Assembly: GCA_040005235.1 (NCBI GenBank)
Contig: JBDTZG010000007.1
Coordinates: 32,001-96,000 of the forward strand
Origin: Acidobacteriota bacterium
GTDB taxonomy: Bacteria; Acidobacteriota; Thermoanaerobaculia; Multivoradales; UBA5704
Direction: 5' to 3'
DNA: 64,000 nucleotides
A program made the translations under genes and the position numbers. Positions 5,901 through 52,953 of this stretch are shown here, piece after piece; the first letter of the stretch is position 1, and every line of letters begins with the position of its first letter. Below the pieces are notes generated by a model. That model was not told the origin of the DNA, ran no database searches, and saw only the letters and a program-made list of their open reading frames with translations.

Positions 5901-6494
5901 CTTCAGGAAATCGGGCGCGGAGGCGCGATCCACGCTCGCGCGGTCTGGCGTTTCTTCCCTGCCGAGGCGGAAGGGGACCGGATTACCTTGCGCTGCCCAG
6001 GGACCGGTGGGGTCGCCGCCGAATGGACCTTTCCGCGTCAGGCGCGCGATGGAGGCTTGTGCCTTTCGGACTACGTGCTGCCGAACGATTCGATCGCCCT
6101 GTTCGTCACCACCGCGGGAGAAGGAGTCCGCGAGCGGGTCGAGACCTGGAAAAACAACGGCGAATATCTAAAAAGCCACGCCTTCGCGGCGCTCGCTCTA
6201 GAAACCGCCGAAGCCGCCGCCGAATATCTGCACCACAGGTTGCGCGCCGAATGGGGTTTCCCCGCCCCCCCCGATCTTTCGATGACCGATCAACTCGCCG
6301 CCCGCTACCGAGGCAAGCGCTACAGCTTCGGTTACCCGGCTTGTCCCGACCTCGCTTTTCAGCGCCAACTGTTTACCGCGCTCTCGCCCGAAGAGATCGG
6401 CGTACATCTCACCGAGGGCGACATGATGGACCCGGAGGCGAGCGTCTCGGCGCTGGTTTTGGAGCATCCGGATGCTCGGTATTTTGGGGTGTGA
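2988..6494 (+). CDS. metH: B12-dependent methionine synthase
   Basis: LDGATGT, GGCCGT Zn motif, GERTN pterin domain, GDVHDIGKN cobalamin motif, RYSFGYPACPDL activation domain. Confidence 0.97.
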   Translation: MMATVPVVPVEIPIPPIPADLETRRDLLIRALAERILVLDGATGTALQAADLTAADFGGPELEGCNENLCRIRPDVVDGVHERYLKAGCDIVETDSFGGTPLVLAEYGLASDAFELNRLSAAIARTACARWDSTQKPRFVAGSMGPTTRAISVTGNVTFEELQETFRIQALGLMAGGADYLLLETAQDTRNVKAGLIGIEEAFTQAGWRISVAVSATFETTGTLLGGQDAEALVASVAHADLLYLGINCATGPERMTDPLRTLAELAQVRVACVPNAGLPDEEGCYREGPEVFEKVFGRFLDAGWLNVVGGCCGTTDAHVRSLVALVEGRKPRAVPHHHRAWVSGLEAVELTDDNRPLLVGERTNVLGSRKFKRLIASGEIEAAAEVGRAQVRAGAQVLDVCLQDPDRDERGDVEAFLGRLIRLVKAPLMIDSTDAVVMARALTYCQGKSILNSINLEDGRVRFDRVVPMAKSFGAALVVGTIDEKGMAVTVERKVEIAQRSFHLLTDEFRIPPEDIWWDALVFPCGTGDAAYIGSAAQTIAGVAALKEQFPEAKTILGVSNVSFGLPEAGREVLNSVFLYHATKAGLDAAIVNTEKLARYADIPEEERALAEALIFLPPGDVEGSERAITEFTAYFRGRTGTAARTTSRAELPLEQRIARAVVEGSKEGLEADLEAALADPRWPAPLDLINGPLMAGMAEVGRLFNDNQLIVAEVLQSAEVMKAAVSFLELRMEKVEGSTRGKILLATVKGDVHDIGKNLVDIILSNNGFQVINLGIKVPSERLIDAVREHKPDLIGLSGLLVKSAQQMVITADDLKVAGIDLPLIVGGAALTRRFTHRKIAMAYGGLCTYAKDAMHGLSLVERLTDPAARPALEREVAEIQAADRVDAVESSAPSEGSTAAPVIVRRDLIAPPPPDFERHVEDLDLDKVWSFLNPQMVYGKHLGLRGSVKKLEEAGDERLAKLRALIEELQEIGRGGAIHARAVWRFFPAEAEGDRITLRCPGTGGVAAEWTFPRQARDGGLCLSDYVLPNDSIALFVTTAGEGVRERVETWKNNGEYLKSHAFAALALETAEAAAEYLHHRLRAEWGFPAPPDLSMTDQLAARYRGKRYSFGYPACPDLAFQRQLFTALSPEEIGVHLTEGDMMDPEASVSALVLEHPDARYFGV

Positions 6495-11311: not shown

Positions 11312-12523
11312 TCATTCGCGCCAGTCGCCGAGGGGTAGGATCTCGCACCGCGCGCCGGCCGGCTGTGGCGGGGCGCCCGCTCGAACCCGCACCAGGGCGG
11401 TGCCGAGCGCAAAGGCGCCGAGGTCGTGCGATCCGCGCGAAAGATTCGGCGTGGCGCGGATTGCACCCGAAGAGAAGGTCACCGCCGCGGTCAGGAAGCG
11501 ATCGCGGGCCCCCGTGCCGGGGAGAGGCGCCTCAAGCTCCGCCGCGAGCGCGCCGTGCCAGAAGCCGTCGGGCACGCCGAGCCAACGCCGGAGCGCCGGG
11601 CGGACGAACAGCCAGAAACAGGCCATGACGGACGCCGGGTTGCCCGGCAGGCCGAATACGATGCCGCCGTCGTGGACTGCGAAGACCAGCGGTTGCCCCG
11701 GCTGGATCGCCACCTTGTCGAGCACGATCCGGCAGCCGAGCCGGGTGAGCACGCCCTCGACCAGATCGTGCTCGCCCATCGAGACCCCGCCGCACAAAAG
11801 CAGCACGTCGTAGCCGAGGCCGCGCTCGATCCGGGCCGAAAGCTCCTCCTGCCGATCCGGCGCGATGCCCAACGAGTCGGCGGCGAGTCCGAACGAGCGG
11901 CAAGCCGCGAGCAGGAAATCGGTGTGCGAATCGCGCAATTGGCCCGGTCCGGGCTCGAGCTCGGGCGGCACCACCTCGTCGCCGGTCGCAAGGATCGCGA
12001 CGGTCGGCGGCCGGACCACCGGGATGTCGCCGTAGCCGTGGGTGGCGAGCAAGGAGAGCGCGCCCGGGCCGAGGCGGGCTCCGGCGGGAAACAGGGGGTC
12101 CCCTGCGCGCTGGATCTCGCCGCGGCGGCGAATGTGGTCGCCCGCGGCCGGGGCGGCGCGAGAGATCACCCGGTCGCTTCCGCCGTCGGTCTGCTCAACC
12201 GGGATCACCCGGTCGGCGCCCTCCGGGATGGGGGCGCCGGTCATGATCCGGACCGCGGCGCCGGCCGGCAGGACGAAGCCCGGCGGATCGCCCGCGCGGA
12301 TCGCCCCGACCACCGTCGTCGGCTCGCCGCCGGGAGCGAAATCTCCCCCCAGCGCATACCCGTCCATCGCCGAGACATCCGAGGCGGGCACGTCCACCCG
12401 TGCCGCCAAGGCTTCCGCGAGCGTCCGGCCCGCCGCCTGGCGGCGCGGCAGCGAAAGCGTCTGCGGCTGGCGGCGGTCAAGCTCCCGGGCGATCCGTGCC
12501 CAGGCTTCCTCGGGGGCGATCAT
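11312..12523 (-). CDS. moeA: molybdopterin molybdotransferase MoeA
   Basis: SAMDGYA, RIMTGAPIP, TGDEV, GGVSMG, GLPGNP motifs. Confidence 0.95.
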   Translation of the reverse strand: MIAPEEAWARIARELDRRQPQTLSLPRRQAAGRTLAEALAARVDVPASDVSAMDGYALGGDFAPGGEPTTVVGAIRAGDPPGFVLPAGAAVRIMTGAPIPEGADRVIPVEQTDGGSDRVISRAAPAAGDHIRRRGEIQRAGDPLFPAGARLGPGALSLLATHGYGDIPVVRPPTVAILATGDEVVPPELEPGPGQLRDSHTDFLLAACRSFGLAADSLGIAPDRQEELSARIERGLGYDVLLLCGGVSMGEHDLVEGVLTRLGCRIVLDKVAIQPGQPLVFAVHDGGIVFGLPGNPASVMACFWLFVRPALRRWLGVPDGFWHGALAAELEAPLPGTGARDRFLTAAVTFSSGAIRATPNLSRGSHDLGAFALGTALVRVRAGAPPQPAGARCEILPLGDWRE

Positions 12524-12600
12524 GAGTGGGGGCTCCTCAGGGCGACTTAAACGACGGTCTCCAATGGTATCCTTCGCGCGATCCGAAAAGAGAGCGGGGC

Positions 12601-13449
12601 ATGATGCAGTCGCAAACGGAGGCAGACCTCCCCCCCACCGAGGAAGCTTCGTTTCAATACCGTGGCAGCCTGTCCGAGGTCGCCCTGCCGGAGATCCTCT
12701 ACACGATCGACCGTTTTCAGGTGCCGGGGCAGATGGAAGCCTGGCGCGAAGGATCGGTCAAGAAGATTTTTCTGCGCGAAGGCAACGTCGTTTCGGCCAG
12801 CTCGTCCGATCTCGTCGACAGTCTCGGCCATCACCTGGAGCGCAGCGGCCTGCTGACGCCCCAGGCGGTCGCCGAGGCGATGGAAGAGCGTCGGCAGACC
12901 AACCGGCGGCTCGGGGTGCTGCTGATCGAGCGCGGTCTGCTCACCCCGGCGCAGGTGTATCAGGCGATCCGCCAGCAGGTCGAGGGGATCGTCTGGAGCC
13001 TGTTCGACTGGCCGGACGGCGAGATCCGATTCAAGATCGGCGGTTTTCGGACGCCGGACGCGGTCCGCATCCAGCTGCCCATGCGCCAGGTGATCCTGCG
13101 CGGCATCGAACGGTCGCAAAACGCCAAGACCCTGGTCGCCCGGCTGGGCCGCAAAGAAACGGTGTTCGAGGCCTGCTTCCGCACCGAGGATCTGATCGAA
13201 ACCGCGCTCGACACCGACGAGATGCGCCTGCTGGAGCTGGTCGATGGTCGCCGCACCCTGTTCGACATCTGCACCCAGGGACCCCGGGGGGTGGCGGAAA
13301 ACGGCAAGCTGCTCTACGCTTTTGCCGCGCTGCAGTTGATCCGCCGGTGCGAGGTGCCCGCGGCGCCGGTCGCGGAGCCCCCCCTCGACGAGGGCACGGG
13401 GGCGATCCGCATCCGGTTCAAGACCGCCACCCCCAAGCCCGGCCCCTGA
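12601..13449 (+). CDS. DUF4388 (PatA-N-like) domain protein
   Basis: YRGSLSEVALPEIL, RRLGVLLIERGLL, LFDWPDGEIRF, LVDGRRT. Confidence 0.8.
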   Translation: MMQSQTEADLPPTEEASFQYRGSLSEVALPEILYTIDRFQVPGQMEAWREGSVKKIFLREGNVVSASSSDLVDSLGHHLERSGLLTPQAVAEAMEERRQTNRRLGVLLIERGLLTPAQVYQAIRQQVEGIVWSLFDWPDGEIRFKIGGFRTPDAVRIQLPMRQVILRGIERSQNAKTLVARLGRKETVFEACFRTEDLIETALDTDEMRLLELVDGRRTLFDICTQGPRGVAENGKLLYAFAALQLIRRCEVPAAPVAEPPLDEGTGAIRIRFKTATPKPGP

Positions 13450-14056: not shown

Positions 14057-14087
14057 TTGACTATTCATGCAGCTTCATGCAGTATCC
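14057..14087 (+). promoter_or_regulatory. arg operon promoter with ARG-box-like operators
   Basis: TTGACT overlapped by TGACTATTCATGCA and TGCAGCTTCATGCA, upstream of argR. Confidence 0.55.
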
Positions 14088-14147
14088 GCCGCATTCTTTT
14101 GCGCGCAGCGCTGTTCTGCGCGAGTAGCGCGCGATGGGAGCCCTAGC

Positions 14148-14612
14148 ATGAGCCCTGAAGACGATCTGCACCGAGACCGACGCCGCGTGATCCTGGATCT
14201 TCTCCGGGCGCGCCGGGTCGCGAACCAGCTGGAGCTGGTGGGGCTGCTTGGTCTCCAGGGGATTGAGGCGACGCAGTCGAGCGTCAGCCGCGATCTGCGG
14301 TTTCTCGGGGTGGCGAAAGTCGCCGGGCACTACGTGGCGCCCACGGGCGACGTGCCGGCCGGGGCAGATTTCGGGCCGATCGGCCGCTTCGTCCATGGCG
14401 CGCGGACGGCGGGACCGAATCTGATCGTGCTTGAAACCGCGGTCGGTACGGCGCAGACGGTGGCGATCGCGATCGATCGCTCCGGCTGGCCCGAGGTGGT
14501 GGGTACTTTGGCGGGCGACGACACGATCTTCGTCGCCACCGCGAACGCGCGGGATCAACAGCGGTTCCTTCGTCATCTGGACCTTTTGCGGGAGGAACAC
14601 ATCCATGGCTGA
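14148..14612 (+). CDS. argR: arginine repressor
   Basis: [12 protein letters not shown] and [10 protein letters not shown] arginine-binding motif. Confidence 0.95.
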
Positions 14613-15867
14613 TACGACTGAGACGACTGAGAGGACGGCGATTCCTGGTCTCGATCCGCGCCGCGGCGAGCCGATCGTCCTGGCGTTTTCCGGCGGGCTC
14701 GATACGTCGTACTGCATCCCCTGGCTCGCCGAGAGCTACGGCCGGCCGGTGGTGACGGTGACGGTCGATACCGGCGGGCTCGATTCCGCGGCGGCCGACG
14801 AGTTGGCCGAACGTTCGCGCGCTCTCGGGGCCGTGGCGCACCACCGCATCGAGGCTAGGACCGAATTCTTCGACCGGGTGCTCCGGTTCCTGATCCTCGG
14901 AAATGTCCGGCGGGGTCAGCTCTATCCGCTCTGCGTCGGCGCCGAGCGGTCAATCCAGGCGCAGGCCGTCGCCCACGCCGCGGCGGGGCTGGGCTCGCGC
15001 ACGGTGGCCCACGGCTGCACCGCGGCGGGCAACGACCAGGTCCGGTTCGAGGTGGCGCTCCGGACGCTCGCCCCGAGCCTCGAAATCCTCGCTCCGGTGC
15101 GCGACCATCCCCGGCCGCGGGCTTCGCAGGTGGCGTATCTCCAGGCGAAGAATCTGCCGATTCCGCCGTTCGGCGCCGCCTATTCGATCAATCGCGGCCT
15201 GTGGGGGACGACGATCGGCGGCCAGGAAACGCTTACGAGCGAAGGCACGATCCCCGAGGAGGCGTGGGTGCTGTCGCACGGCGCTTTCGACGATCCGCGC
15301 CCCGCGGCTTTCCATCGGCTCGGATTCGTGCGCGGCATTCCGACCTCGTGGGACGGCGAGAACCTCGCGCCCGTCGAGCTGATCGAGCGGATCGAGCGCG
15401 AGGCGGCGCCGTATGCGATCGGCCGAGGAATCCATCTCGGCGACACGATTCTCGGCACCAAGGGGCGGGTGGCGTTCGAGGCGCCGGCCGCGGAAGTGCT
15501 GCTCGTCGCCCACCGCGAGCTGGAGAAACTGACCCTCACCGGCCGGCAGCAGCGGGTGAAGGAAACCGTCGCCGCCACCTATGGCGATCTGGTCCACGAG
15601 GGGCAGCATCTCGATCCGGTCTGCCGCGACATCGAGGCGCTGTTGCTGTCTTCCCAGGAGCGGGTGACGGGAGAGGTGCGGCTGCGCTTCCGGCCGGGCA
15701 ACCTGTTCGTCGAGGGGGTTGTGTCGTCCTTTTCGTTGCTCGCCGCCACGCGCGGCGTCTACGGTGAGGCGGCGGGGGAGTGGACATCGGAGGATGCACG
15801 GGGCTTGTCGCGTTTGGCGGCTCTTCCCGGCATGCTCCATCGGCGGGCCGGTTCGGAGGACCTCTAA
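14605..15867 (+). CDS. argG: argininosuccinate synthase
   Basis: [34 protein letters not shown]. Confidence 0.95.
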
Positions 15868-16953
15868 ATGAAAGCCGTGATTCTCGACAAGATCGCATCG
15901 GTGACCCGCACCTGCCGCTTGAAGCGAGAGGTGCTCACCAGCTCGGAGATTCCCTGCCGCGAGGGGATCGTGGTCGCCGTGCGCGTGCTGACCGACAAGA
16001 CGACCTATAACCAGATGGAGCTGCCGAGCGGCCGGATGGCTCTGGTGAAGAAAGGCGACGTGATCGCCGGTGCGCTCGGCCACCGTCAGGCGCTGTTCGG
16101 CTATTCCGGGCACCTGCCCGACCACCTGGTGCCGGGCGACAAGGTCCAGCTGCTCAACATCGGCGGCGTGATCGGCATCTGCGATTCGATCAATCCGGAC
16201 CTGGGGCCGCCGTTCGAGGCCGAGGTGATCGGCGCCGTCCTGTCGTTCCCGTTCCTGGGCGAGCGGGTGGGCGTGCCGGCGCGGATCGGCGAACGGCCGC
16301 TCGACCTTTCCGCTCCGTTGGAGGCGGCCGGGGTGCCGGTGATCGCGCTCGTCGGCTCGTGCATGAACAGCGGCAAGACCGCGGCGGCCTGCACCTTGAT
16401 CCGCCATCTGACCCACGCCGGCTACACGGTCGACGCGTTCAAGGCGACCGGCGTGTCGCTGCGCCGCGACATCCTGGCGATGGAGGACGCGGGCGCCCGG
16501 ACGACGGCGATCTTCACCGACTTCGGCGTCGTTTCGACCTCGGGGGTGAACGCCGCCGCGGTCACCCGGACGATGCTCACCCAACTCGCCGCCGGCAAAC
16601 CCGAGGCGATCATGGTCGAGCTGGGCGATGGGCTGCTCGGCGCCTACGGAGTAGACGCGATCCTCGACGACGAGGAGGTGAAGAAGGCTTTCACCGCGGT
16701 GATCCTGGCAGCGAACGATCCCGTAGCCGCGTGGGGCGGCGTGCGCCTGCTGCGCGAGCGGTTCGGCGTCGAGCCGGTGGCGGTGACCGGACCCGCGACC
16801 GACAACCTGGTGGGCACCCGGATCATCGAGGAGACGGTGGGCGTGCCGGCGATCAACGCCCGCACCGAAGGGGAGCGGCTCGCCAAGCTGGTCCGCTCGC
16901 GTTTGATGCCGTACGACCCCGCGCGCGTCGCGGGCGGGGAGCTCGCATCATGA
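15868..16953 (+). CDS. DUF1611/DgcN-like P-loop protein of unknown function inside the arg operon
   Basis: GSCMNSGKT P-loop, KATG, DAGA, FTDFG, VELGDG motifs; abuts argG and overlaps argC. Confidence 0.8.
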   Translation: MKAVILDKIASVTRTCRLKREVLTSSEIPCREGIVVAVRVLTDKTTYNQMELPSGRMALVKKGDVIAGALGHRQALFGYSGHLPDHLVPGDKVQLLNIGGVIGICDSINPDLGPPFEAEVIGAVLSFPFLGERVGVPARIGERPLDLSAPLEAAGVPVIALVGSCMNSGKTAAACTLIRHLTHAGYTVDAFKATGVSLRRDILAMEDAGARTTAIFTDFGVVSTSGVNAAAVTRTMLTQLAAGKPEAIMVELGDGLLGAYGVDAILDDEEVKKAFTAVILAANDPVAAWGGVRLLRERFGVEPVAVTGPATDNLVGTRIIEETVGVPAINARTEGERLAKLVRSRLMPYDPARVAGGELAS

Positions 16954-18029
16954 TCTCTTCCCACCACACGGCACGCACAGTGGTGATCGGCGGCTCGGGC
17001 TACGTTGCGGGCGAGCTGCTGCGGCTGCTCGCCGTCCATCCGTTCCTGCGCGACCTGGCGGTGATTTCCGAGAGCAAGCCGGGCACGCGGATCGAGGAGG
17101 CGTTTCCGCATCTCGAAGGGGCGTATCCCGATTTGAAGTTCCTGGGGACCGATGCGCTGCCGCGGCTGTTCGCCGAGAACGAGACGGTCGCGGTTTTTTC
17201 GGCCGCGCCCCACGGTGCGTCGGCGCCGCTCGTCGATTCGCTGCTCCTTAATGCCGAGCATGCGGGCGCGCGCGTGCGGTTGGTCGATCTGTCGGCCGAT
17301 TTCCGCTTTCCCGATGCCGGAAGCTACGAGCAGGTTTACGGCCACCCGCACGGCGCGCCGGGGCGGCTGGCTGAATTCGTCTCTGCCGTGCCCGAGCACT
17401 TGGCCGAAGCGCCGCTCGGGCGGGTCTCCCATCCGGGATGTTTCACCACGTCGGTTCTGCTCGCCTCGGTGCCTCTCCTTTCTCTTGGGCTGATCGAGCC
17501 GCGATTCACCGTGGTCGCGGTCACCGGCAGCACGGGCGCCGGGCGAACGCCGACCGCCACCACCCACCACCCGGAGCGGCGCAGCAACCTGTTCGCCTAC
17601 AACCCGCTCGGCCATCGCCACGAGCCCGAGATGCGGCTTCACGCGGGCAAGGCCGCCGGCCGGCCGGTCGAGATCGCATTCGTGCCGCAGTCCGGACCGT
17701 ACGCCCGCGGTATCTACGCGACGATCCAGGCCCGCCTGGCGAGGCCGGTCGATCTGGAAGAGATGGTGGCGGGGGTGGCGCAGTTTTACGCCGGCTCGCC
17801 GTTCGTCAAAGTCGCCCCGGCGGGCGGCAAACCGCCGCGGCTGCAAGACGTCGCCGGCACCAACCGGGCGCTGCTCTCGTTCGCACTGCGCGGCGAGGAT
17901 CTGGTCGCGTTCTCGACCCTCGACAACCTGGTCAAAGGCGCGGCCGGCGGCGCGGTGCAGTGGATGAACCGGTTGCTCGATCTGCCCGAGGTCGCAGGGT
18001 TGGCGCAGCCGGGGTTGGGCTGGATCTAA
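16950..18029 (+). CDS. argC: N-acyl-gamma-glutamyl-phosphate reductase
   Basis: GGSGYVAGEL, DLSADFR, HPGCF, DNLVKGAAG. Confidence 0.95.
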   Translation: MISSHHTARTVVIGGSGYVAGELLRLLAVHPFLRDLAVISESKPGTRIEEAFPHLEGAYPDLKFLGTDALPRLFAENETVAVFSAAPHGASAPLVDSLLLNAEHAGARVRLVDLSADFRFPDAGSYEQVYGHPHGAPGRLAEFVSAVPEHLAEAPLGRVSHPGCFTTSVLLASVPLLSLGLIEPRFTVVAVTGSTGAGRTPTATTHHPERRSNLFAYNPLGHRHEPEMRLHAGKAAGRPVEIAFVPQSGPYARGIYATIQARLARPVDLEEMVAGVAQFYAGSPFVKVAPAGGKPPRLQDVAGTNRALLSFALRGEDLVAFSTLDNLVKGAAGGAVQWMNRLLDLPEVAGLAQPGLGWI

Positions 18030-18065: not shown

Positions 18066-19268
18066 ATGGTCGAGCTTGAAACAGCACCGGCGAAAGCCGC
18101 CGAAGACGAAGCCCGCTGGCTGCTGCCGGTCTACGCCCAGCTGCCGGTCGAGCCGGTGAGCGGATCGGGTGTCGTGCTCAAGACCCGCGACGGCCGCGAG
18201 CTGCTCGATTTCTACGGCGGCCACGCGGTGGCTCTCCTCGGTTACGGCCATCCGCGCCTGCTGGCGGCGCTGGCCGCCCAAGCGGAGACGATGTTCTTCC
18301 AGAGCAACCTGGTGCCGCTCGAAGTGCGCGCCCGCGCGGCGCACGCCCTGGTCTCGTTCGCTCCCAAGGGATTGACGCGGGCGTTCCTGGTCAACAGCGG
18401 CGCCGAGGCGAACGAGAACGCGTTGCGCCTCGCGATCCGGCAGACCGGACGCGGCCGGGTGATCGCTCTTGAAGGGAGCTTCCACGGCCGCACCGCGGCG
18501 GCGGCGGCGGTCACCTGGGGGTCGGAGAAATGGGCCGCCTTCCCCTCGAATCCGTTTGAAGTCGAGTTCGTGCCGGTCGGCGATCTGGACGCGCTGGAGC
18601 GCGCTCTCCAACCTCGCGGTGAGGGCGATTCCGGCGTCGCCGCTTTGATCCTCGAACCGGTGCAGGGGATGGCCGGCGCGGTCGATCTCGGCGCTTCGTA
18701 CCTGTCTGCCGCGCGCGAATTGACCCAAGCCGCCGGGGCGCTGCTGATCTTCGACGAGGTCCAGTGTGGCATGGGCCGCACCGGCCAGCCGTTCGCGGCG
18801 CAGCTCCATGGCGTCACCCCGGATCTGCTGACCACGGCCAAGGGCCTCGCGGGCGGATTTCCCGCCGCCGCGGTGCTGGTCTCGGATGCGGCGGCGGCGG
18901 GTTTGAAGAAAGGTGATCTCGGCACCACGTTCGGCGGCGGGCCGCTCGCCTGCGCATTGATCGAGGCGACGATCGGCGCGATCGAAGAAGAGGATCTGCT
19001 CGCCCGGGTGCGACGGCTCTCCGCTCGCCTGCGGTCCGAATGCCTGGGCGGCGTCGTGACTTCCGTTCAGGGCGCCGGTTTTCTGCTCGGCCTGCGCTGC
19101 GTCCGTCCGGCCAAAGAGGTGCAGGCCGAGCTGCTCGATCGCGGCCTGATGACCGGCACCAGCGCCGACCCGTACGTGCTGCGGCTGCTGCCGCCGCTGG
19201 TGCTCGAAGACGCCCATGTGGACGCGCTGGTCGCGGCGCTTCGCGAGCTGCCCGGGGCTTCTGCATGA
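18066..19268 (+). CDS. argD: acetyl/succinyl-ornithine aminotransferase
   Basis: NSGAEANE, SFHGRT, DEVQCGMGRTG, TAKGL, GTTFGG. Confidence 0.92.
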   Translation: MVELETAPAKAAEDEARWLLPVYAQLPVEPVSGSGVVLKTRDGRELLDFYGGHAVALLGYGHPRLLAALAAQAETMFFQSNLVPLEVRARAAHALVSFAPKGLTRAFLVNSGAEANENALRLAIRQTGRGRVIALEGSFHGRTAAAAAVTWGSEKWAAFPSNPFEVEFVPVGDLDALERALQPRGEGDSGVAALILEPVQGMAGAVDLGASYLSAARELTQAAGALLIFDEVQCGMGRTGQPFAAQLHGVTPDLLTTAKGLAGGFPAAAVLVSDAAAAGLKKGDLGTTFGGGPLACALIEATIGAIEEEDLLARVRRLSARLRSECLGGVVTSVQGAGFLLGLRCVRPAKEVQAELLDRGLMTGTSADPYVLRLLPPLVLEDAHVDALVAALRELPGASA

Positions 19269-20320
19269 AGCGCTTCGTCTCGCTTTCCGAGCACTCGGGC
19301 GAAGAGATCGGCGAGCTGCTGGCGCTAGCCTCGCGGCTGGAGAAGCATTCCGATCCGGCGGCGCTCTCTCGCACGTTGCCGGGCAAAGTTCTCGGGCTGC
19401 TGTTCTTCAACCCGTCGCTCCGGACGCTTTCGAGTTTCCAGGCGGGCATGGCGCGGCTCGGCGGCTCGTGCTTCGTGATCTCGCCCGGTCAGGGGAGCTG
19501 GCAGCTCGAAACCCGCACGGGAGTCGTCATGGACGGTGCGGCGGCCGAGCACGTGCGCGAGGCGATTCCGGTGCTCGCGGGCTACGCCCATGCGCTCGGC
19601 ATCCGGTCGTTCGCGGGCGGGACGGATCTCCATGCCGATCTTTCCGATGCGACGTTCGCCGCGATGGCCGCGACGCTCGAAGCGTCATACCCCGTACCGT
19701 TGATCAACCTCGAGTCGGCGATCGACCACCCGTGCCAGGCGCTTGGCGATTGGAAGACGCTCGACGATCTGGGCGTTCCTGCGGGCGGCAAGCTCGTGCT
19801 CAGCTGGGCGCGTCATCCCAAGCCGCTTCCGCTCGCGGTGCCCGCGACCGTAGTGCAGATGGCCGCGGCGCGCGGCATGGACGTGACGGTGCTGCGGCCC
19901 GACGAATACGCGCTTCCCGAGCCGCTGATGGCGCGCGCCCGGGCCTCGGCCGCCCTTTCCGGCGGAACGGTTTCTGAGACCGCGGATCGGGAGGCGGCGA
20001 TTGCCGGAGCGCACGTGATCTACGCCAAGTCGTGGGCTTCCGCCAAGCACTACGGCGATCTGGCAATGGAAACCGAGCTGCGCGCCCGCTACTCCGACTG
20101 GACGGTCGACGAGTCGTGGTTCCGCCCGGCGGCGCCCGGCGCGCACTTTCTTCACTGCCTGCCGGTGCGGCGGAACGTGGTGGTCGCGGACGAAGTGCTG
20201 GACGGGCCGCGGAGCGCCGTATTGCCCCAAGCCCACAATCGGATGTGGGCGCAGATGGCGGTGTTGCATCGAATGTTGGGCGGGTTGGCCGGCTTGGCCG
20301 GACAGGAGGGAGCCGCATGA
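19265..20320 (+). CDS. argF: N-acylornithine carbamoyltransferase (ArgF', AOTCase/SOTCase family)
   Basis: FFNPSLRT, HPCQ, HPKPLP proline-rich loop, KSW, HCLPVRR. Confidence 0.92.
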   Translation: MKRFVSLSEHSGEEIGELLALASRLEKHSDPAALSRTLPGKVLGLLFFNPSLRTLSSFQAGMARLGGSCFVISPGQGSWQLETRTGVVMDGAAAEHVREAIPVLAGYAHALGIRSFAGGTDLHADLSDATFAAMAATLEASYPVPLINLESAIDHPCQALGDWKTLDDLGVPAGGKLVLSWARHPKPLPLAVPATVVQMAAARGMDVTVLRPDEYALPEPLMARARASAALSGGTVSETADREAAIAGAHVIYAKSWASAKHYGDLAMETELRARYSDWTVDESWFRPAAPGAHFLHCLPVRRNVVVADEVLDGPRSAVLPQAHNRMWAQMAVLHRMLGGLAGLAGQEGAA

Positions 20321-21240
20321 ATCACCACGATTCGAACCTAGAAGTCGCAGGCTTGAAGCTCGCGATTCCGTATATCCGCCTCTATCAGGGCAAGACCTTC
20401 GTGATCAAAGCCGGCGGCGGCGCGTTCGCCGACGAGCGGACCACGATCGCGCTGCTCGAACAGGTGGAGATCCTCCATCGGCTCGGCGTGCGGGTGGTGC
20501 TCGTCCACGGCGGCGGGCCGCAAGCCTCGGCGCTCGCCGCGATCTTGGGCGCTTCGGTCGAGTTCAAGGCCGGCCGCCGGGTCACCGATCCGGTCTCGCT
20601 CGATGCCGCGACGATGGTGTTGAACGGCGCGGTCAACACGCAGATCCTCGCCCTCTGCCGCCGGGTGGGCGTACCGGCGGTGGGCCTTTCGGGCGTGGAC
20701 GCCGGCCTGATCGTCGCGCGCCGCCGGCCGCCGGTCGAGGTGGACGGCGAGACCGTCGATTACGGCCTGGTGGGCGACGTGATTCGGGTCGATCCCAAAG
20801 TGGTGCTGGCCCAGCTCGACGCGGGGCTGGTGCCGGTCGTGAGCCCGATCTCGGCCGACGAGGCGGGCGGCCTGCTGAACGTCAACGCCGACACGGTCGC
20901 CGCCCGGCTCGCGGTCGCTCTTTCTGCCGAGAAGCTGATCGTTCTGACCGGCGCCGCCGGCATTCTCGAACGCGAGGAGGACGCGGGGTCGCGGATCTCC
21001 TACACCGACCTCGCGGGGCTCGCCGAGCTGAACAGCAAAGGGGCGCTCGGCGCCGGCATGCGGCCTAAAGCGGCGGCGATCGAGCAGGCGTTGCTCCAGG
21101 GAGTCCGGCGGGTTCACGTGATCTCGCAGACCGCTCCCGACGCGCTGCTGCGCGAGGTGTTCACCAACGAGGGGAGCGGCACCCTTGTGGTGGCCGACAT
21201 CCACGCCCTCTCCCCTGCCGAGCTGGCGGCCGCGGGTTAG
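20317..21240 (+). CDS. argB: N-acylglutamate kinase
   Basis: VIKAGG, VHGGGPQ, NVNAD, GMRPK; no C-terminal GNAT domain. Confidence 0.93.
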   Translation: MNHHDSNLEVAGLKLAIPYIRLYQGKTFVIKAGGGAFADERTTIALLEQVEILHRLGVRVVLVHGGGPQASALAAILGASVEFKAGRRVTDPVSLDAATMVLNGAVNTQILALCRRVGVPAVGLSGVDAGLIVARRRPPVEVDGETVDYGLVGDVIRVDPKVVLAQLDAGLVPVVSPISADEAGGLLNVNADTVAARLAVALSAEKLIVLTGAAGILEREEDAGSRISYTDLAGLAELNSKGALGAGMRPKAAAIEQALLQGVRRVHVISQTAPDALLREVFTNEGSGTLVVADIHALSPAELAAAG

Positions 21241-21249
21241 GCCGGATCA

Positions 21250-22353
21250 GTGAACGCTACCCCCTCGCCTGCGGACGTTCTCGCGCTCCACCGGCTCGCG
21301 GTCTCGACCCCTTCGGTTTCCGGCGACGAAGGTCCTCTCGCCGAGCACATGGGCGCCTGGCTCGGAGCGCGCGGTGCATGGGTCGAGCGCCTGGGAAACA
21401 CTCTGCTCGCGATCTACGAGAGCGAAATCCCGGGGGCGTCGCCGACCGCGCCGATCATTCTCCTCGACACCCATCTCGACACCGTGCCCCCCGCGCCCGG
21501 TTGGTCCCGCGATCCGTTCGCGGCGACCGTCGAGGAGGGGCGCGTCTACGGTCTCGGGTCGAACGACGCCAAAGCCTCGGTCGCGGCGATGTCGGCGGCA
21601 TTCGTCGCCTGTCTCGGCCGGCCGCTGCCGTTCACCTTGGCCCTTGCGTTGGTCGAGCAGGAAGAGACGAAGGGTCTGGGCACCGAACGCGTGCTCGCGG
21701 CGCTTGAACAGCGCGGCCGGCGCCTCGCGAGCGCGATCGTCGGCGAGCCGACGGGGCTCGACGTAGCGGTCGCCCAGAAGGGGCTGATGGTTTTAGAGCT
21801 GGTTGCCCGCGGCGACGCCTGCCACGCGGCCCACGCCAAATCGCTCGGCGCTCGAAACGCGGCGCGCGAGTTGGCGCGCGACCTGCTCGCGCTGGAAGCG
21901 ATCGAATTCCCCATCCACGAGGCGCTGGGGCCGGTCACCGTCGAGCCGACCCAGCTGCGCGCCGGCACCGCGCGCAACGTCCTCCCCGCCGAGGCGGCGG
22001 CGTTGCTCGACGTGCGGACCACGCCCGCCATCTCGCCGGAAGAAATCGCGCTCGCGATCGGCGGGGCGGTGGGCGCCGAGATCCGCGTGCTCTCCGACCG
22101 CCTCCGGCCGCGTGCGACTCCCGAAGATTCGCCGCTGCTGGCCGCCGTTCTCTCCGTCCGTCCGGTCGCGCGGCTGTACGGGTCGCCGACGCTCTCCGAT
22201 TGGGCGCTGATCGACGCGCCCGCGATCAAATGCGGCCCCGGCCGGTCCGAGCGCTCGCACCGGGTGGACGAGTACGTCGAAGAGGAAGAAATCCTCGCCG
22301 GGGTGCGGTTCTACGGCGAGTTGATCGATGCGCTCGCCCGAGGGTGGCGATGA
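21250..22353 (+). CDS. argE: M20 family N-acyl-ornithine/citrulline deacylase
   Basis: HLDTV, GLGSNDAK, QEE, GEPT, SH..DE metal ligands. Confidence 0.88.
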   Translation: MNATPSPADVLALHRLAVSTPSVSGDEGPLAEHMGAWLGARGAWVERLGNTLLAIYESEIPGASPTAPIILLDTHLDTVPPAPGWSRDPFAATVEEGRVYGLGSNDAKASVAAMSAAFVACLGRPLPFTLALALVEQEETKGLGTERVLAALEQRGRRLASAIVGEPTGLDVAVAQKGLMVLELVARGDACHAAHAKSLGARNAARELARDLLALEAIEFPIHEALGPVTVEPTQLRAGTARNVLPAEAAALLDVRTTPAISPEEIALAIGGAVGAEIRVLSDRLRPRATPEDSPLLAAVLSVRPVARLYGSPTLSDWALIDAPAIKCGPGRSERSHRVDEYVEEEEILAGVRFYGELIDALARGWR

Positions 22354-23555
22354 CCCGGCTCTGGGATAAAGGCGTGCCGCTCGACGAGCGGGTGCTCCGC
22401 TACACCGCGGGCGAGGACCACGCCCTGGATGAGCGGCTGGTCGCTTACGACGTCCGCGCCTCGATCGCTCACGCCGAGATGCTGACCGGACAAAAGCTAT
22501 TGGCGGAAGAAGATCTCGCCGCAATCCGCGCCGGCCTCGAAGCGCTGGGCGCCGAGCACGCCGCGGGAGCGTGGCGGATCGAGCTGGCGGACGAGGATTG
22601 CCACACCGCGCTCGAACGGCGGCTCACCGAACGAATCGGCGAAGCCGGCGCGCGCATCCACCTCGGCCGTTCGCGGAACGACCAGGTGCTCGCGGCGTTA
22701 CGCATCTATTTGCGCGACGCGGTGGCGAATCTGGCCGAAGGTGCCCGGGCGATCGGTTCGGCGCTCGACGATCTCGCCGCGCGCCATTCGGACGTTGCGC
22801 TCTCCGGCTACACCCACATGCAGCCGGCCATGCCGAGCACCGTGGCGCTCTGGGCCGGCGGCTTCGCGAGCGAGCTGCGCGACGACGCGGAAGGGTTCGA
22901 GGCGGCGCTCCGGCGGATCGACAAAAATCCGCTCGGCTCCGCCGCCGGCTACGGCGTCCCCGCCATTCTGCCGATCGACCGCGAATCAACGCGAGAGAAG
23001 CTCGGCTTCCGCGAGATCCACCAGCCCGTGACCGCCGTCCAGCTCTCTCGCGGCAAGGCCGAAGCGCAGGTGCTGTTCGAGGTCGCCCTTCTGCTCCAGG
23101 ACTGCGGCCGGCTGGCCGCCGATCTCGTCCTCTTCTCGATGAAAGAGCTGGGCTTCGTGAGCCTGCCGGCCGAGATGACAACCGGCTCGTCGATCATGCC
23201 CCAGAAGCGCAACCCGGACGTCTTCGAGCTGATCCGAGCCCGCACCGCAGCGGGCCACGCGGGCCTGCTCGAAGCGCTCGCGATTCCGGCCAAGCTCCCG
23301 TCGGGATACCACCGCGATCTCCAATTGCTCAAAGCTCCCCTCTTTCGCGGCATCGACCTCGCGCTCGAAACTGGCGCGATCCTCGCTCACGCGCTCCCCG
23401 GCGTCCGCTTCCACCCGGAGAAGATTCATCTCGATCCGGAGCTGTCCGCGGCGGAAGACGCCTATCGGCTGGTGCTCGAAGAGGGGATCCCGTTCCGCGA
23501 GGCCTATGCCCGGGTGGCGGCGGGGCTGGCGCACGATAAGATGCCGAAACGCTGA
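22350..23555 (+). CDS. argH: argininosuccinate lyase (short type)
   Basis: RSRNDQ, GYTHMQ, GSSIMPQKRNPD. Confidence 0.95.
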   Translation: MTRLWDKGVPLDERVLRYTAGEDHALDERLVAYDVRASIAHAEMLTGQKLLAEEDLAAIRAGLEALGAEHAAGAWRIELADEDCHTALERRLTERIGEAGARIHLGRSRNDQVLAALRIYLRDAVANLAEGARAIGSALDDLAARHSDVALSGYTHMQPAMPSTVALWAGGFASELRDDAEGFEAALRRIDKNPLGSAAGYGVPAILPIDRESTREKLGFREIHQPVTAVQLSRGKAEAQVLFEVALLLQDCGRLAADLVLFSMKELGFVSLPAEMTTGSSIMPQKRNPDVFELIRARTAAGHAGLLEALAIPAKLPSGYHRDLQLLKAPLFRGIDLALETGAILAHALPGVRFHPEKIHLDPELSAAEDAYRLVLEEGIPFREAYARVAAGLAHDKMPKR

Positions 23556-23629
23556 CCTTGGCTAAGCACGATCCGCGCTCACACCCTTCCGGCGTAGGTG
23601 TGTCCGTTGTCAGCATGAAGAGACCGGTC

Positions 23630-26302: not shown

Positions 26303-26335
26303 CCTCGACGATTCGAATCCAGGAGTGAAGACGCC

Positions 26336-29020: not shown

Positions 29021-29151
29021 GAAAGGATGGCCCGGAGACTTGGAAACTCGTCAGTCCCGCGCGGCGGCGGGCCGAATGTGCGACCGATTCTCGCGTCTAG
29101 ATCCTTAGAATAGGTCGCACCTCTCGCATTTCAACGGTTTGGAGGACGCCC

Positions 29152-35600: not shown

Positions 35601-35651
35601 GAGCGGCTGATTGCGGGGTTGGATCAGGTGTTGGGGGAGCTGAAAAACTGA
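32634..35651 (+). CDS. phosphotransferase + degenerate M23-like + class III PLP aminotransferase/phospho-lyase fusion
   Basis: IHGDANDWN and IDFGD kinase motifs; central NGGWPPH; [22 protein letters not shown]. Confidence 0.9.
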
Positions 35652-40798: not shown

Positions 40799-41443
40799 AT
40801 GGCTGCTTCCGAGCCTCAAATCCCTTGGAAAGAGACCATAGCGATCACGCCGGAGGAATCGGAGAACCTGGCGATCATCGAGCGCTACTTCGCCGTGATC
40901 CATTCGGGCGGGGATCCGTTTCCCCGTCTGGCGCCGCGGGTTGCGCTGCGCCGCCTCGCCCCAGCCGACCTCGAAGACTTTCAGGCCTACCGCTCCGATC
41001 CGGAGGTTGCCCGCTACCAGAGCTGGTCCTCGATGTCGGTAGCCGAAGCCACGGCGTTTCTCACCGAACGAGAAACTGCGCCGTTCGGCCGGCCGGGGTG
41101 GTTTCAGATCGGCATCGCTGAACGCTCAACCGGCCGTCTTGTGGGCGACATCGGCATCTGCCTGCACCGCAACGCATCCGAGCCCGCCGAGATCGGCTTC
41201 ACTCTGGCGACTCTGTGGCAGCGCCAAGGTTTGGCATCCGAAGCGGTGCGCGAAACCCTCGCCATGCTGTTCGAGAACACGGAAGTCGCCCAGGTCATCG
41301 CGATCACCGATACGCGCAACCTGGCTTCGATCCGTCTGCTCGAACGGGTGGGCTTTCTGTTGAGCCGGACGATCCCCGCCTCCTTTCGCGGCGAGCCGTG
41401 CACCGAGCACGTGTTCGTGCTGGGTCGTTCCGTCAAAACCTGA
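40799..41443 (+). CDS. RimJ/RimL-type GNAT acetyltransferase
   Basis: YRSDPEVARYQ, QRQGLASEA, NLASIRLLERVGF; start uncertain. Confidence 0.85.
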   Translation: MAASEPQIPWKETIAITPEESENLAIIERYFAVIHSGGDPFPRLAPRVALRRLAPADLEDFQAYRSDPEVARYQSWSSMSVAEATAFLTERETAPFGRPGWFQIGIAERSTGRLVGDIGICLHRNASEPAEIGFTLATLWQRQGLASEAVRETLAMLFENTEVAQVIAITDTRNLASIRLLERVGFLLSRTIPASFRGEPCTEHVFVLGRSVKT

Positions 41444-52937: not shown

Positions 52938-52953
52938 GATCCCGGCCCGGCGG

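What the first reader, a model, noticed from the sequence alone, without database searches (positions are those of the whole stretch)
15868..16953. DUF1611/DgcN-like protein fills the missing ArgA slot: candidate new N-acylglutamate synthase
Seen: a tightly coupled operon argR-argG-X-argC-argD-argF'-argB-argE-argH covers every glutamate-to-arginine step except the first, glutamate N-acylation. There is no argA/argJ, and ArgB has no GNAT fusion. X starts immediately after the argG stop and overlaps argC (ATGA). It has a P-loop (GSCMNSGKT) plus KATG and ELGDG motifs of the DUF1611/BioD-like fold. Known: a deacylase (ArgE) route does not recycle the acyl group, so it needs a stoichiometric synthase; DgcN, a DUF1611 protein, is a D-glutamate N-acetyltransferase. 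Inference: X is a non-GNAT L-glutamate N-acetyl- or N-succinyl-transferase (or an ATP-dependent acyl ligase), a non-orthologous replacement of ArgA.
Basis: partly seen in the sequence, partly recalled or inferred. Interest (0 to 1): 0.85.

Follow-up and report, generated by a model that had tools for sequence, protein, structure and literature searches.

The report
Predicted non-GNAT N-succinylglutamate synthase gene
A conserved gene of no named family inside the arginine operon most likely makes the missing first intermediate of arginine synthesis (probably N-succinylglutamate), an idea a recent preprint already proposes for this kind of protein and nobody has tested at the bench.

Summary
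X (15868-16953, 361 aa) lies in a translationally coupled argR-argG-X-argC-argD-argF'-argB-argE-argH operon. The 100%-complete genome has no ArgJ, classical ArgA or NAT domain.

X passes no Pfam or NCBIfam cut-off. Its C-terminal half is a BioD/DUF1611_C-like P-loop domain. Its N-terminal 148 residues form a confidently predicted beta domain with no solved relative found.

- Synteny: argC follows X in 29 of 30, 20 of 20 and 71 of 80 loci, from many phyla.
- Distribution in 301 Acidobacteriota genomes: 73 carry X. All 73 have argC and none has ArgJ or ArgA.
- ArgF' link: 59 of the 63 genomes with ArgF' over the model's cut-off carry X.
- Acyl group: the window's ArgF' has the N-succinylornithine signature (A/P/V at the Glu92/Asn185/Lys302 positions), so the acyl group is probably succinyl.

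bioRxiv 10.1101/2024.10.14.618325 (GapMind 2026) predicts the same role, on the same arguments, for a Steroidobacter protein and its homologs. I could not fetch that sequence to align it.

No biochemistry exists. Whether X uses succinyl-CoA or succinate plus ATP is open.

The parts
14067..14612 (+). argR, arginine repressor, first gene of the cluster
   Evidence: PF01316 and PF02863 hits; TIGR01529 E 1.1e-26
14605..15867 (+). argG, argininosuccinate synthase. The ORF is open from 14431. The likely start is ATG 14605, behind GGAGG.
   Evidence: PF00764 and PF20979 hits; start codons listed
15868..16953 (+). X, 361 aa: candidate N-succinyl-L-glutamate synthase. It has an N-terminal beta domain (about residues 1-148) and a BioD/DUF1611_C-like P-loop domain (about 150-350). 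Family-invariant residues are P84, G169, K170, K192, E251 and D284.
16950..18029 (+). [quoted passage not shown]
   Evidence: TIGR01850, 282.3 bits against a cut-off of 233.6; sequence
18066..19268 (+). argD, N-acylornithine aminotransferase
   Evidence: PF00202 E 7.7e-91; NF002874 E 1.1e-101
19265..20320 (+). argF', N-acylornithine carbamoyltransferase with the N-succinylornithine signature: Ala94, Pro189 and Val306 stand at the Glu92, Asn185 and Lys302 positions of the Xanthomonas enzyme
   Evidence: NF003384, 340.9 bits; alignment to PDB 3l02, 3l05 and 3m4n; discriminating residues from review PMC4581275; positions computed
20317..21240 (+). argB, N-acylglutamate kinase, without an acyltransferase domain
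   Evidence: PF00696 only; TIGR00761, 192.7 bits; start codon
21250..22353 (+). argE-like M20 deacylase (probably N-succinylcitrulline or N-succinylornithine desuccinylase)
   Evidence: PF01546 and PF07687 hits. All NCBIfam ArgE/DapE models are below their cut-offs.
22350..23555 (+). argH, argininosuccinate lyase
   Evidence: TIGR00838, 288.7 bits against a cut-off of 279.5, matching model positions 21-386 of 455; start codon

Best explanation
X is the enzyme for the first step of arginine synthesis in this organism. It acylates the alpha-amino group of L-glutamate, taking the place of ArgA or ArgJ. The product is most likely N-succinyl-L-glutamate. The operon's ArgB, ArgC, ArgD, ArgF' (as an N-succinylornithine carbamoyltransferase) and the M20 desuccinylase would then carry it on.

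X is not a GNAT. Its catalytic core is a SIMIBI-class P-loop domain, remotely related to DUF1611_C (the family that includes the D-glutamate N-acetyltransferase DgcN) and to dethiobiotin synthetase. It is joined to a family-specific N-terminal beta domain that probably holds the substrates.

Shown here: gene position, conservation, distribution across genomes, fold and the ArgF' signature.
Inferred: the reaction itself. By analogy with DgcN I favour succinyl-CoA as the donor (about 55%). The alternative is ATP-dependent ligation of free succinate (about 25-30%).
For: 1. Only the first step lacks a gene. The operon encodes ArgB, C, D, F', E, G, H and ArgR. The complete genome has no ArgJ, classical ArgA or NAT domain.

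2. Synteny is deep.
- argC lies directly downstream on the same strand in 29 of 30 loci.
- The same holds in 20 of 20 loci from 17 Acidobacteriota families, with X identity down to about 33%.
- It holds in 71 of 80 loci from records labelled Chloroflexia, Planctomycetota, Elusimicrobiota, Gemmatimonadota, Bdellovibrionota, Myxococcota, Alphaproteobacteria, Bacteroidetes and others. argG lies directly upstream in 58 of those 80.

3. Distribution in one fixed sample of 301 Acidobacteriota genomes.
- 73 have full-length X at E<=1.4e-108. All 73 have argC. None of the 73 has ArgJ or ArgA over cut-off.
- 84 have ArgJ.
- Families f30 and f51 hold X genera and ArgJ genera side by side. So does f7, through the unpublished genome G024. 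The switch therefore happened repeatedly.

4. ArgF' over its cut-off occurs in 63 of the 301 genomes. 59 of those 63 have X, one more has an X fragment, and none has ArgJ.

5. In 40 X-bearing genomes of other phyla, ArgJ occurs in 2. In the 14 control genomes it occurs in 10.

6. Fold.
- AF2 model: pLDDT 95.
- The best solved matches all fall on residues about 150-349: DUF1611 2g0t (Z 17.4, rmsd 2.8, 181 aligned), BioD 3of5 (Z 16.9), DUF1611 2obn (Z 16.8) and DgcN 7xrj (Z 15.7, rmsd 3.0, 182 aligned).
- hhalign to a DUF1611 alignment: 89%, E 2.3e-6, 216 columns.
- hhalign to a BioD alignment: 83%, E 8.7e-6, 171 columns.
- A paralogous subfamily reaches PF07755 at 26.2 bits against a cut-off of 25.

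7. Succinyl.
- The window's ArgF' has A/P/V at the three positions that review PMC4581275 gives as E/N/K in the acetyl enzyme and A,S,P,V,Q / P / V,I,E in the succinyl enzyme.
- In 62 X-linked ArgF' proteins, position 92 is T30, A21, S4, V4, P3; position 185 is P60, A2; position 302 is V22, I22, E16, K2.

8. The same conclusion is reached in bioRxiv 10.1101/2024.10.14.618325.
Against: - No biochemical or genetic test exists for any member.
- The own genome has 25 GNAT (PF00583) matches. A GNAT-type synthase elsewhere cannot be excluded.
- Unrecognised synthases do exist in this phylum. G158, G179 and G048 have argR-argC-argB-argF-argG-argH but no X, ArgJ or ArgA.
- Exceptions to the pattern:
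  - G181 has argC-argD-argF'-argB with Mla transporter genes upstream, and no X at E<=0.01.
  - G144 and G184 have ArgF' but no X. They are 91% and 94% complete.
  - Two X-bearing genomes, the ones holding L109 and L121, also have ArgJ.
  - 14 of the 73 X genomes have no ArgF' over cut-off.
- Related genomes are not independent, so the counts overstate the statistics.
- Likeness to DgcN is remote, covers one domain only, and is no closer than likeness to BioD, which does different chemistry.
- Thr, the commonest residue at position 92, is not in the review's list.
- I did not read Shi et al. 2007 or Yu et al. 2023. Neither is held.
Confidence: 0.7

Rival explanations
1. Same role, other chemistry. 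X is an ATP-dependent amide ligase. Like BioD, CobB/CobQ and CTP synthase, it would phosphorylate a carboxylate (here succinate) on the P-loop domain and let the amino group of glutamate attack the acyl phosphate. No CoA thioester would be needed.
For: - The Walker A Gly-Lys is invariant and the Thr nearly so (G169, K170, T171). E251 of VELGDG is invariant.
- The profile search of the PDB finds BioD first (3fgn, E 2e-4) and no DUF1611 chain among 42 hits.
- In hhalign, BioD's invariant K37-P aligns with X's invariant K192, and EGAGG aligns with ELGDG.
- In the DUF1611 alignment that position is Gly or a gap.
- CTP synthase also scores Z 15.7.
Against: - The structural neighbour that acts on glutamate is, by its PDB title and NCBIfam name, an N-acetyltransferase.
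- DUF1611 proteins keep the same P-loop and E-G-x-G motifs, so these motifs do not discriminate.
- The Lys to Gly spacing differs between X (K-x-T-G) and BioD (K-P-x-x-x-G).
- All known N-acylglutamate synthases use acyl-CoA (review PMC4490483, abstract and passages).
Confidence: 0.2
2. X is an accessory or regulatory P-loop NTPase of the arginine pathway. It could be a metal-insertion or assembly factor for the M20 deacylase, or a partner that regulates ArgB or ArgC. One of the genome's GNATs would acylate the glutamate.
For: - SIMIBI relatives such as HypB, UreG, MeaB and ApbC are chaperones and score Z 12-15.
- There is a weak MobB hit (E 0.002).
- The own genome has 25 GNAT matches.
- Three argC-bearing genomes manage without X, ArgJ or ArgA.
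Against: - An accessory factor would not be expected to exclude ArgJ: 0 of 73 and 2 of 40.
- ArgE is detected in only 17 of 80 X loci, while argC is adjacent in 71.
- The best fold matches are enzymes of the BioD/DUF1611 group, not the G3E GTPases.
- The conserved 148-residue N-domain, with invariant E51, R73 and P84, looks like a substrate-binding module.
Confidence: 0.07
3. X recycles the acyl group, as the ornithine acetyltransferase side of ArgJ does. It would pass succinyl from N-succinylornithine or N-succinylcitrulline to glutamate, rather than make N-succinylglutamate de novo.
For: - X is mutually exclusive with ArgJ specifically.
- Many X loci show no argE nearby: 63 of 80.
- The preprint notes that Steroidobacter also lacks ArgE.
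Against: - This window and 17 of 80 loci do carry a deacylase in the operon.
- A cycle still needs a priming synthase.
- No P-loop enzyme is known to me to do such a transfer (recalled, not searched).
Confidence: 0.03

Closest known systems
[quoted passage not shown]
   Same: - A hypothetical protein set among argR, argG, argC, argD, argF', argB, argE and argH.
- Never found with ArgA homologs.
- Weak Foldseek likeness to DgcN 7XRJ.
- The neighbouring ArgF' lacks Glu at position 92, hence succinylated intermediates.

I reproduced each of these features for X before I found and read the preprint; later calls (54, 91) extended them. The nearest ESM Atlas clusters are mostly from Pseudomonadota.
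   Different: - I could not obtain the Steroidobacter sequence, so identity of the family is inferred and not aligned.
- Steroidobacter lacks ArgE. This operon has an M20 deacylase.
- In the parts of the preprint that I read I did not see the exclusion of ArgJ, the two-domain anatomy, the unmatched N-terminal domain or the BioD-like Lys.
DgcN / DUF1611 (PF07755 plus its N-terminal domain; NF041892; PDB 7xrj, 2g0t, 2obn)
   Same: - The P-loop C-domain fold matches: Z 15.7-17.4.
- hhalign gives 89% over 216 columns.
- The substrate of the named member is also glutamate, though the D form, and the reaction is N-acylation (PDB title; NCBIfam name; preprint).
   Different: - No PF07755 or NF041892 hit for X.
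- The N-terminal halves do not align.
- True DUF1611 genes coexist with X in G089, G101 and G124.
- DUF1611 lacks X's invariant K192.
- The context is different: DgcN belongs to D-glutamate catabolism (PMC12363236 passages).
Dethiobiotin synthetase BioD (TIGR00347, PF13500)
   Same: - Best sequence-profile hit in the PDB (3fgn, E 2e-4).
- Fold Z 15.2-16.9.
- hhalign 83%.
- The P-loop, the Lys after strand 2 and the E-G-x-G-G-like motif align.
   Different: - BioD is a single domain of about 220 aa. X has an extra 148-residue domain.
- X has no PF13500 or TIGR00347 hit.
- The context is the arg operon, not the bio genes.
- BioD closes a ureido ring with ATP and CO2. It does not acylate an amino acid.
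GNAT-type N-acylglutamate synthases: ArgA, short and fused NAGS, and the Bacteroides BT3761/Cabys_1732 type (probable N-succinylglutamate synthase)
   Same: - The same proposed step, and for BT3761 the same proposed product (PMC7311316 passages).
- Both sit in arg clusters together with a succinyl-type ArgF'.
   Different: - Unrelated fold. X has no GNAT domain.
- ArgA over cut-off is found in 4 of 301 phylum genomes and in none with X.
ArgJ (PF01960), bifunctional ornithine acetyltransferase / N-acetylglutamate synthase
   Same: It supplies N-acylglutamate in the sister lineages. Its distribution is complementary to X: 84 against 73 of 301 genomes, with no overlap.
   Different: - Ntn-hydrolase-type fold (recalled).
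- It recycles acetyl, and it goes with an ordinary OTCase rather than ArgF'. None of the 63 ArgF' genomes has ArgJ.

Membership tests
ACG33_RS14135-like predicted N-succinylglutamate synthase (GapMind 2026 preprint) | Sequence homology to ACG33_RS14135 / A0A127FCT3 | not testable with these tools
   The reference sequence could not be fetched. The listing of cluster members was shut off. The 80 genome-contig loci kept held no Steroidobacter record.
ACG33_RS14135-like predicted N-succinylglutamate synthase (GapMind 2026 preprint) | Homologs virtually always sit in arginine synthesis operons | tested here: met
   argC is adjacent in 29 of 30 loci, 20 of 20 and 71 of 80.
ACG33_RS14135-like predicted N-succinylglutamate synthase (GapMind 2026 preprint) | Never in the same genome as ArgA homologs | tested here: met
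   TIGR01890 over cut-off occurs in 4 of 301 genomes and in none of the 73 with X. The own genome has none.
ACG33_RS14135-like predicted N-succinylglutamate synthase (GapMind 2026 preprint) | Weak structural likeness to DgcN (PDB 7XRJ) | tested here: met
   VIA-align Z 15.7, rmsd 3.0, 182 residues aligned, model residues 140-344. 7xrj is not among the 50 Foldseek rows shown.
ACG33_RS14135-like predicted N-succinylglutamate synthase (GapMind 2026 preprint) | Neighbouring ArgF' has A, P, S, V (or T, I) instead of Glu at position 92 | tested here: met
   The window has Ala. In 62 X-linked ArgF' proteins the residue is T30, A21, S4, V4, P3 and never E.
DUF1611 / DgcN | PF07755 (DUF1611_C) or NF041892 (DgcN) match at the curated cut-off | tested here: not met
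   X has no hit at E<=0.01. Genuine DUF1611 proteins of the same phylum score E 1e-44 to 1e-71 on PF07755 and 258 bits on NF041892.
DUF1611 / DgcN | P-loop C-terminal domain of the DUF1611 fold | tested here: met
   2g0t Z 17.4, 2obn Z 16.8, 7xrj Z 15.7. hhalign gives 89%, E 2.3e-6, 216 columns.
DUF1611 / DgcN | DUF1611-type N-terminal domain | tested here: inconclusive
   hhalign aligns only X columns 109-345 with DUF1611 columns 122-367. The N-domain model alone gave no chain with Z>=5 among 48,161 and no DUF1611 entry among the 31 rows with Z>=2. DSSP shows X residues 1-126 to be nearly all beta.
Dethiobiotin synthetase (BioD) | TIGR00347 or PF13500 match | tested here: not met
   X has no hit at E<=0.01. 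The likeness is only at profile-profile level: 83%, E 8.7e-6.
Dethiobiotin synthetase (BioD) | P-loop GxxxxGKT, Lys37 equivalent and E-G-x-G-G Mg site | tested here: met
   The alignments pair these with G169-K170-T171, K192 and E251-L-G-D-G, invariant or nearly so in 55 family members.
GNAT or ArgJ N-acetylglutamate synthases | GNAT (PF00583, PF04768) or ArgJ (PF01960) domain | tested here: not met
   The Pfam scan of X shows only a weak MobB hit.

The most novel reading that the evidence does not exclude
X is a new kind of amino-acid N-acylating enzyme. It would be an ATP-dependent succinate:L-glutamate ligase that works through an acyl phosphate on a BioD-like P-loop domain. A previously unseen beta domain would position the glutamate. 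Arginine synthesis in at least 592 species-level genomes would then start without any acyl-CoA.
Probability: 0.2. Interest if true: 0.75.

Novelty: already known. Interest (0 to 1): 0.45.

Why it matters
The gene for glutamate succinylation was called unidentified in a 2015 review of N-acetylglutamate synthases (PMC4490483, passage). For Bacteroides, a GNAT has since been proposed (PMC7311316).

X-type proteins would be a second, unrelated solution. They are widespread:
- at least 592 loci among species-representative genomes;
- more than 7,000 protein clusters at 90% identity.

In the public names I saw they are 'hypothetical protein', and the neighbouring ArgF' matches a model named for N-acetylornithine. 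Genome-based predictions of arginine prototrophy for Acidobacteriota, Planctomycetota, Chloroflexia and others therefore depend on this assignment.

The idea is already in a preprint, so the value here is independent confirmation plus added detail:
- complementarity with ArgJ;
- linkage to ArgF';
- a two-domain anatomy with an N-terminal domain that has no solved relative found;
- a BioD-like lysine that keeps an ATP-dependent mechanism open.

The enzyme itself is still untested. A simple assay would settle it.

Tried and rejected
- **Fusions as Rosetta-stone evidence: rejected.**
  - The long 'open frames' (600-867 aa) are out-of-frame, Arg/Pro-rich readings of argG in high-GC DNA.
  - The 15 longer proteins are singletons joined to ArgG or ArgC domains, that is to the neighbouring genes. 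They are probably gene-calling or assembly artefacts.
  - P0195 (X plus AA_kinase) is a single metagenome protein.

- **A known fold for the N-terminal domain: not found.** Foldseek against the PDB gave 0 hits at E<=1e-3. VIA-align against 48,161 chains gave a best Z of 3.3 (LexA C-domain) and none with Z>=5. This does not prove that the fold is new.

- **Sequence search of X and of its paralog against the PDB: nothing meaningful**.

- **Paralogous 'X-low' subfamily.**
  - It is the best hit in 12 of the 301 genomes. It is 27-34% identical to X.
  - No arg genes lie nearby. 9 of the 12 genomes have no argC and 3 have ArgJ.
  - The neighbours differ between the three loci scanned: P-type ATPase and flavin reductase; M20 peptidase and FMN reductase; YheC/D ATP-grasp. 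No role could be read from them.

- **The 22 argC-positive genomes without X, ArgJ or ArgA.** I fetched 16 of them.
  - 10 show an argC-like / argB-like (28-34% identity) / argD-like arrangement.
  - The one of these tested by Pfam (L143) holds LysW and LysX. At least part of this class is therefore the LysW pathway, not a gap.
  - Two loci were too short to read.
  - Three (family f37) and G181 remain true exceptions.

- **Tools and papers that were not available.**
  - Complex prediction, read laying and the look-up of sequencing runs were not used. I make no binding or expression claim.
  - Supplements were not consulted. Figure S2 of the preprint is an image that I could not see.
  - Yu et al. 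2023 (DgcN) and Shi et al. 2007 (Glu92) are not held. What I say of them comes from the preprint's Appendix 2, review PMC4581275, the PDB titles and the NCBIfam name.

- **Literature coverage.** The first literature search was badly framed and gave nothing useful. A search for 'N-acetylglutamate synthase' + 'missing' + 'Acidobacteria' found 4 papers, of which 3 were listed, none on this protein. I do not claim that nothing else is in print.
Full report
**What is there.**
The ORF at 15868-16953 (+) encodes 361 residues (P0001). Its ATG follows the argG stop codon directly, and its TGA overlaps the argC ATG as ATGA.

Pfam and NCBIfam identify the neighbours as argR, argG, argC, argD, an ArgF'-type carbamoyltransferase (NF003384, 340.9 bits against a cut-off of 288), argB (amino-acid kinase domain only), an M20 ArgE/DapE-type deacylase and argH. 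Three further ATGA overlaps (argD/argF', argF'/argB, argE/argH) and a GGAGG before the likely argG start at 14605 show tight translational coupling.

The genome that holds the window is 100% complete by marker genes (140 contigs). It has no ArgJ, no TIGR01890 match other than the operon's own argB and no NAT domain PF04768. It does have 25 GNAT matches. One lies in the window at about 41090-41356, outside the operon, and matches no NCBIfam model at E<=1e-5.

**What X is as a protein.**
- X passes no curated cut-off. The only hits are MobB at E 0.002 (Pfam) and E 0.00058 (TIGR00176). PF07755 (DUF1611) and NF041892 (DgcN) do not appear at E<=0.01.
- The family is large. 7,205 of 8,000 scored candidates in the 90% clusters match at E<=1e-3. 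All 120 listed lack Pfam domains, and those with a name are called 'hypothetical protein'. The closest come from Thermoanaerobaculia MAGs.
- Among 50% representatives, 1,472 match at E<=1e-3 and 194 at E<=1e-30.
- An alignment of 55 full-length members (A1; 27-63% identical to X) has invariant P84, G169, K170, K192, E251 and D284. Nearly invariant are S11, G33, E51, G71, R73, T171, G195, D201 and others.
- AlphaFold2 on A1 gives pLDDT 95 and pTM 0.90. The model has an almost all-beta N-terminal part (strands to residue 126) and an alpha/beta P-loop domain from about residue 155.

**Fold and remote homology of the C-domain.**
- Foldseek ranks BioD first (1dae, E 5.2e-7), followed by SRP/FtsY, HypB and the DUF1611 protein 2obn (E 5.5e-6).
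- VIA-align against 48,161 chains gives a near tie, all on residues about 150-349: DUF1611 2g0t (Z 17.4, rmsd 2.8, 181 aligned), BioD 3of5 (Z 16.9), DUF1611 2obn (Z 16.8), CTP synthase 7dpt (Z 15.7) and 'N-acetyltransferase DgcN' 7xrj (Z 15.7).
- A profile of A1 against PDB sequences finds BioD (3fgn, E 2e-4) and no DUF1611 chain among 42 hits.
- I built a DUF1611 alignment from 12 genes of the same phylum (A4). One of them scores 258 bits on NF041892 DgcN. hhalign of A1 against A4 gives 89% probability, E 2.3e-6, over 216 columns. It covers the C-domain only. GSCMNSGKT pairs with GTDSAVGKRTT, and VELGDG pairs with VEGQGS.
- A BioD alignment of 8 genes (A5) gives 83%, E 8.7e-6, over 171 columns. 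BioD's invariant Lys37 pairs with X's K192. In the DUF1611 alignment that position is Gly or a gap.
- A paralogous subfamily just reaches PF07755 (26.2 bits against a cut-off of 25). The ESM Atlas's nearest clusters are auto-named 'DUF1611 domain-containing protein'.

The C-domain is therefore a separate branch of the BioD/DUF1611_C group. X is not a member of either family.

**The N-domain.**
I modelled it alone from 59 sequences (A3, pLDDT 93.8). It has no Foldseek hit at E<=1e-3. No chain among 48,161 reaches Z>=5; the best is Z 3.3. I found no solved relative, which is not proof of a new fold.

**Context elsewhere.**
- In the 30 best loci of a 301-genome sample of the phylum, argC follows X on the same strand in 29; L022 is the exception. 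argG lies directly upstream in 24 and argR in 4. In the other 2, argG lies upstream on the opposite strand.
- In 20 longer stretches from 17 families, X is inside an arg cluster in all 20. ArgF' is detected in 17 and ArgE in 7.
The 80 kept come from records labelled Chloroflexia, Planctomycetota, Elusimicrobiota, Gemmatimonadota, Bdellovibrionota, Myxococcota, Alphaproteobacteria, Bacteroidetes, Sumerlaeota, Blastocatellia/Pyrinomonadaceae and a few others.
- Among those 80, argC is within 400 nt downstream in 71 and argG within 400 nt upstream in 58. ArgD is detected in 60, ArgF' in 54, ArgB in 53 and ArgE in 17.

**Distribution.**
The same 301 Acidobacteriota genomes were searched five times.
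- X matches 87 genomes. 73 are full-length at E<=1.4e-108. 12 carry only the paralog (E 1e-59 to 1e-66). 2 are fragments.
- ArgJ is in 84 genomes, ArgA over cut-off in 4, and ArgC-family genes in 178.
- All 73 X genomes have ArgC. None has ArgJ or ArgA.
- 83 of the 84 ArgJ genomes have ArgC.
- Families f30 and f51 contain both X genera and ArgJ genera. So does f7, through the unpublished G024. The exchange is therefore not one ancient split.
- ArgF' over cut-off is in 63 genomes. 59 of them have X, one has an X fragment, and none has ArgJ. 14 X genomes have only an ordinary OTCase-level hit.
- In 40 X-bearing genomes of other phyla, ArgJ occurs in 2, those holding L109 and L121.

**Results against a perfect pattern.**
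- 22 ArgC-positive genomes have none of the three. Of the 16 fetched, 10 look like LysW-type clusters. LysW and LysX were confirmed by Pfam in L143.
- G158, G179 and G048 have a classical arg cluster without any recognised synthase. G181 has argC-argD-argF'-argB without X anywhere at E<=0.01.
- Related genomes are not independent. I give counts and no P-values.

**Which acyl group.**
- The window's ArgF' aligns best with the E92A mutant of the Xanthomonas N-acetylornithine enzyme (3l02, E 9.6e-65). The three top PDB sequences differ at exactly the position where the window has Ala.
- Review PMC4581275 (passage read) states that Glu92, Asn185 and Lys302 mark the acetyl enzyme, and that A/S/P/V/Q, P and V/I/E mark the succinyl enzyme.
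- The window has Ala94, Pro189 and Val306 at these positions.
- Of the 100 loci L032-L131, 62 had an ArgF' hit at E<=1e-20. In these, position 92 is T30, A21, S4, V4, P3; position 185 is P60, A2; position 302 is V22, I22, E16, K2. Thr is not in the review's list.

The pathway most likely runs on N-succinyl intermediates, as shown for Bacteroides (PMC7311316 passages).

**Already in print.**
bioRxiv 10.1101/2024.10.14.618325 ('Novel enzymes for amino acid biosynthesis... [quoted passage not shown] I read the passage and the whole appendix. It reports the following:
- The hypothetical protein ACG33_RS14135 of Steroidobacter denitrificans lies in the arg cluster.
- Its homologs are 'virtually always' in arg operons.
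- They never co-occur with ArgA homologs.
- The predicted structure resembles DgcN 7XRJ weakly (E 1.4e-7).
- 90% of 70 neighbouring ArgF' proteins have A, P, S or V at position 92.
- No experiment on this protein is reported in the parts I read.

I could not fetch that sequence. That X belongs to the same family is therefore an inference from identical context, fold likeness and ArgF' pattern. I put it at about 90%.

**How it most likely works.**
- Shown: position, conservation, exclusivity and fold.
- Inferred: X binds L-glutamate and a succinyl donor and forms N-succinyl-L-glutamate.
- By analogy with DgcN, the P-loop may hold the nucleotide part of succinyl-CoA.
- The intact Walker A, the invariant E251 and the BioD-like K192 keep an ATP-dependent, acyl-phosphate route open.
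- The motifs cannot decide between the two, because DUF1611 proteins keep the same P-loop.
- The conserved N-domain residues (E51, R73, P84) are candidates for substrate binding. I could not inspect model coordinates.

**Verdict.**
The finding is real and its interpretation is well supported by comparative evidence. It is not novel as an idea, and it is unproven biochemically.

Noticed in passing
L132:9902-10915, L133:9283-10125, L134:9240-10472, L135-L142 (paralogs in other genomes): A paralogous subfamily is the best hit in 12 of 301 phylum genomes. It is 27-34% identical to X and lies away from arg genes. 9 of the 12 genomes have no argC. One copy reaches PF07755 DUF1611_C at 26.2 bits against a cut-off of 25. 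The neighbours differ: P-type ATPase and flavin reductase; M20 peptidase and FMN reductase; YheC/D ATP-grasp. Its role is unknown.
   Followed up: partly
window 22350-23555: ArgH matches TIGR00838 only over model positions 21-386 of 455, and the protein ends about 12 residues later. It seems to lack the usual C-terminal 70 residues. Orthologs in related loci align over the same length.
   Followed up: no
window 19265-20320: ArgF' scores above the cut-off of the NCBIfam model named N-acetylornithine carbamoyltransferase, but it carries the N-succinylornithine signature (A/P/V). This is a likely systematic misnaming in such genomes.
   Followed up: yes
G000:C76:44998-45909 (own genome, outside the window): A second carbamoyltransferase gene scores 192.6 bits on NF003384, below the cut-off. 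It is an ordinary OTCase/ATCase-type gene present besides ArgF'.
   Followed up: no
L143:9964-10602 and L145:8339-8977: In the LysW-type clusters of two genomes, a conserved 212-aa ORF starting MCR(L/I)L sits between the argC-like and argB-like genes. It has a weak hit to glutamine amidotransferase domain PF13522 (E 3.8e-4).
   Followed up: no
window 32634-35651: A 1005-aa ORF combines an APH-type phosphotransferase domain, a weak M23 peptidase hit and a class-III aminotransferase domain. This is an unusual fusion.
   Followed up: no
window 23558-31332: Directly after the operon come two long ORFs (914 and 894 aa) with no Pfam hit at E<=1e-4. They are followed by a GmrSD-type restriction endonuclease gene (29152-31332). 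In DNA this GC-rich the long ORFs may be spurious.
   Followed up: no
window 2988-6494, 11312-12523, 12526-13449, 52903-55248, 55818-57893: Ordinary flanking genes: MetH (B12-dependent methionine synthase), MoeA (minus strand), a DUF4388 protein, a hydantoinase/oxoprolinase and an S46 peptidase.
   Followed up: no
table, e.g. L042, L043, L051: 'Open frame' lengths of 600-867 aa around X in high-GC genomes are out-of-frame readings of the upstream argG. They are not fusions.
   Followed up: yes
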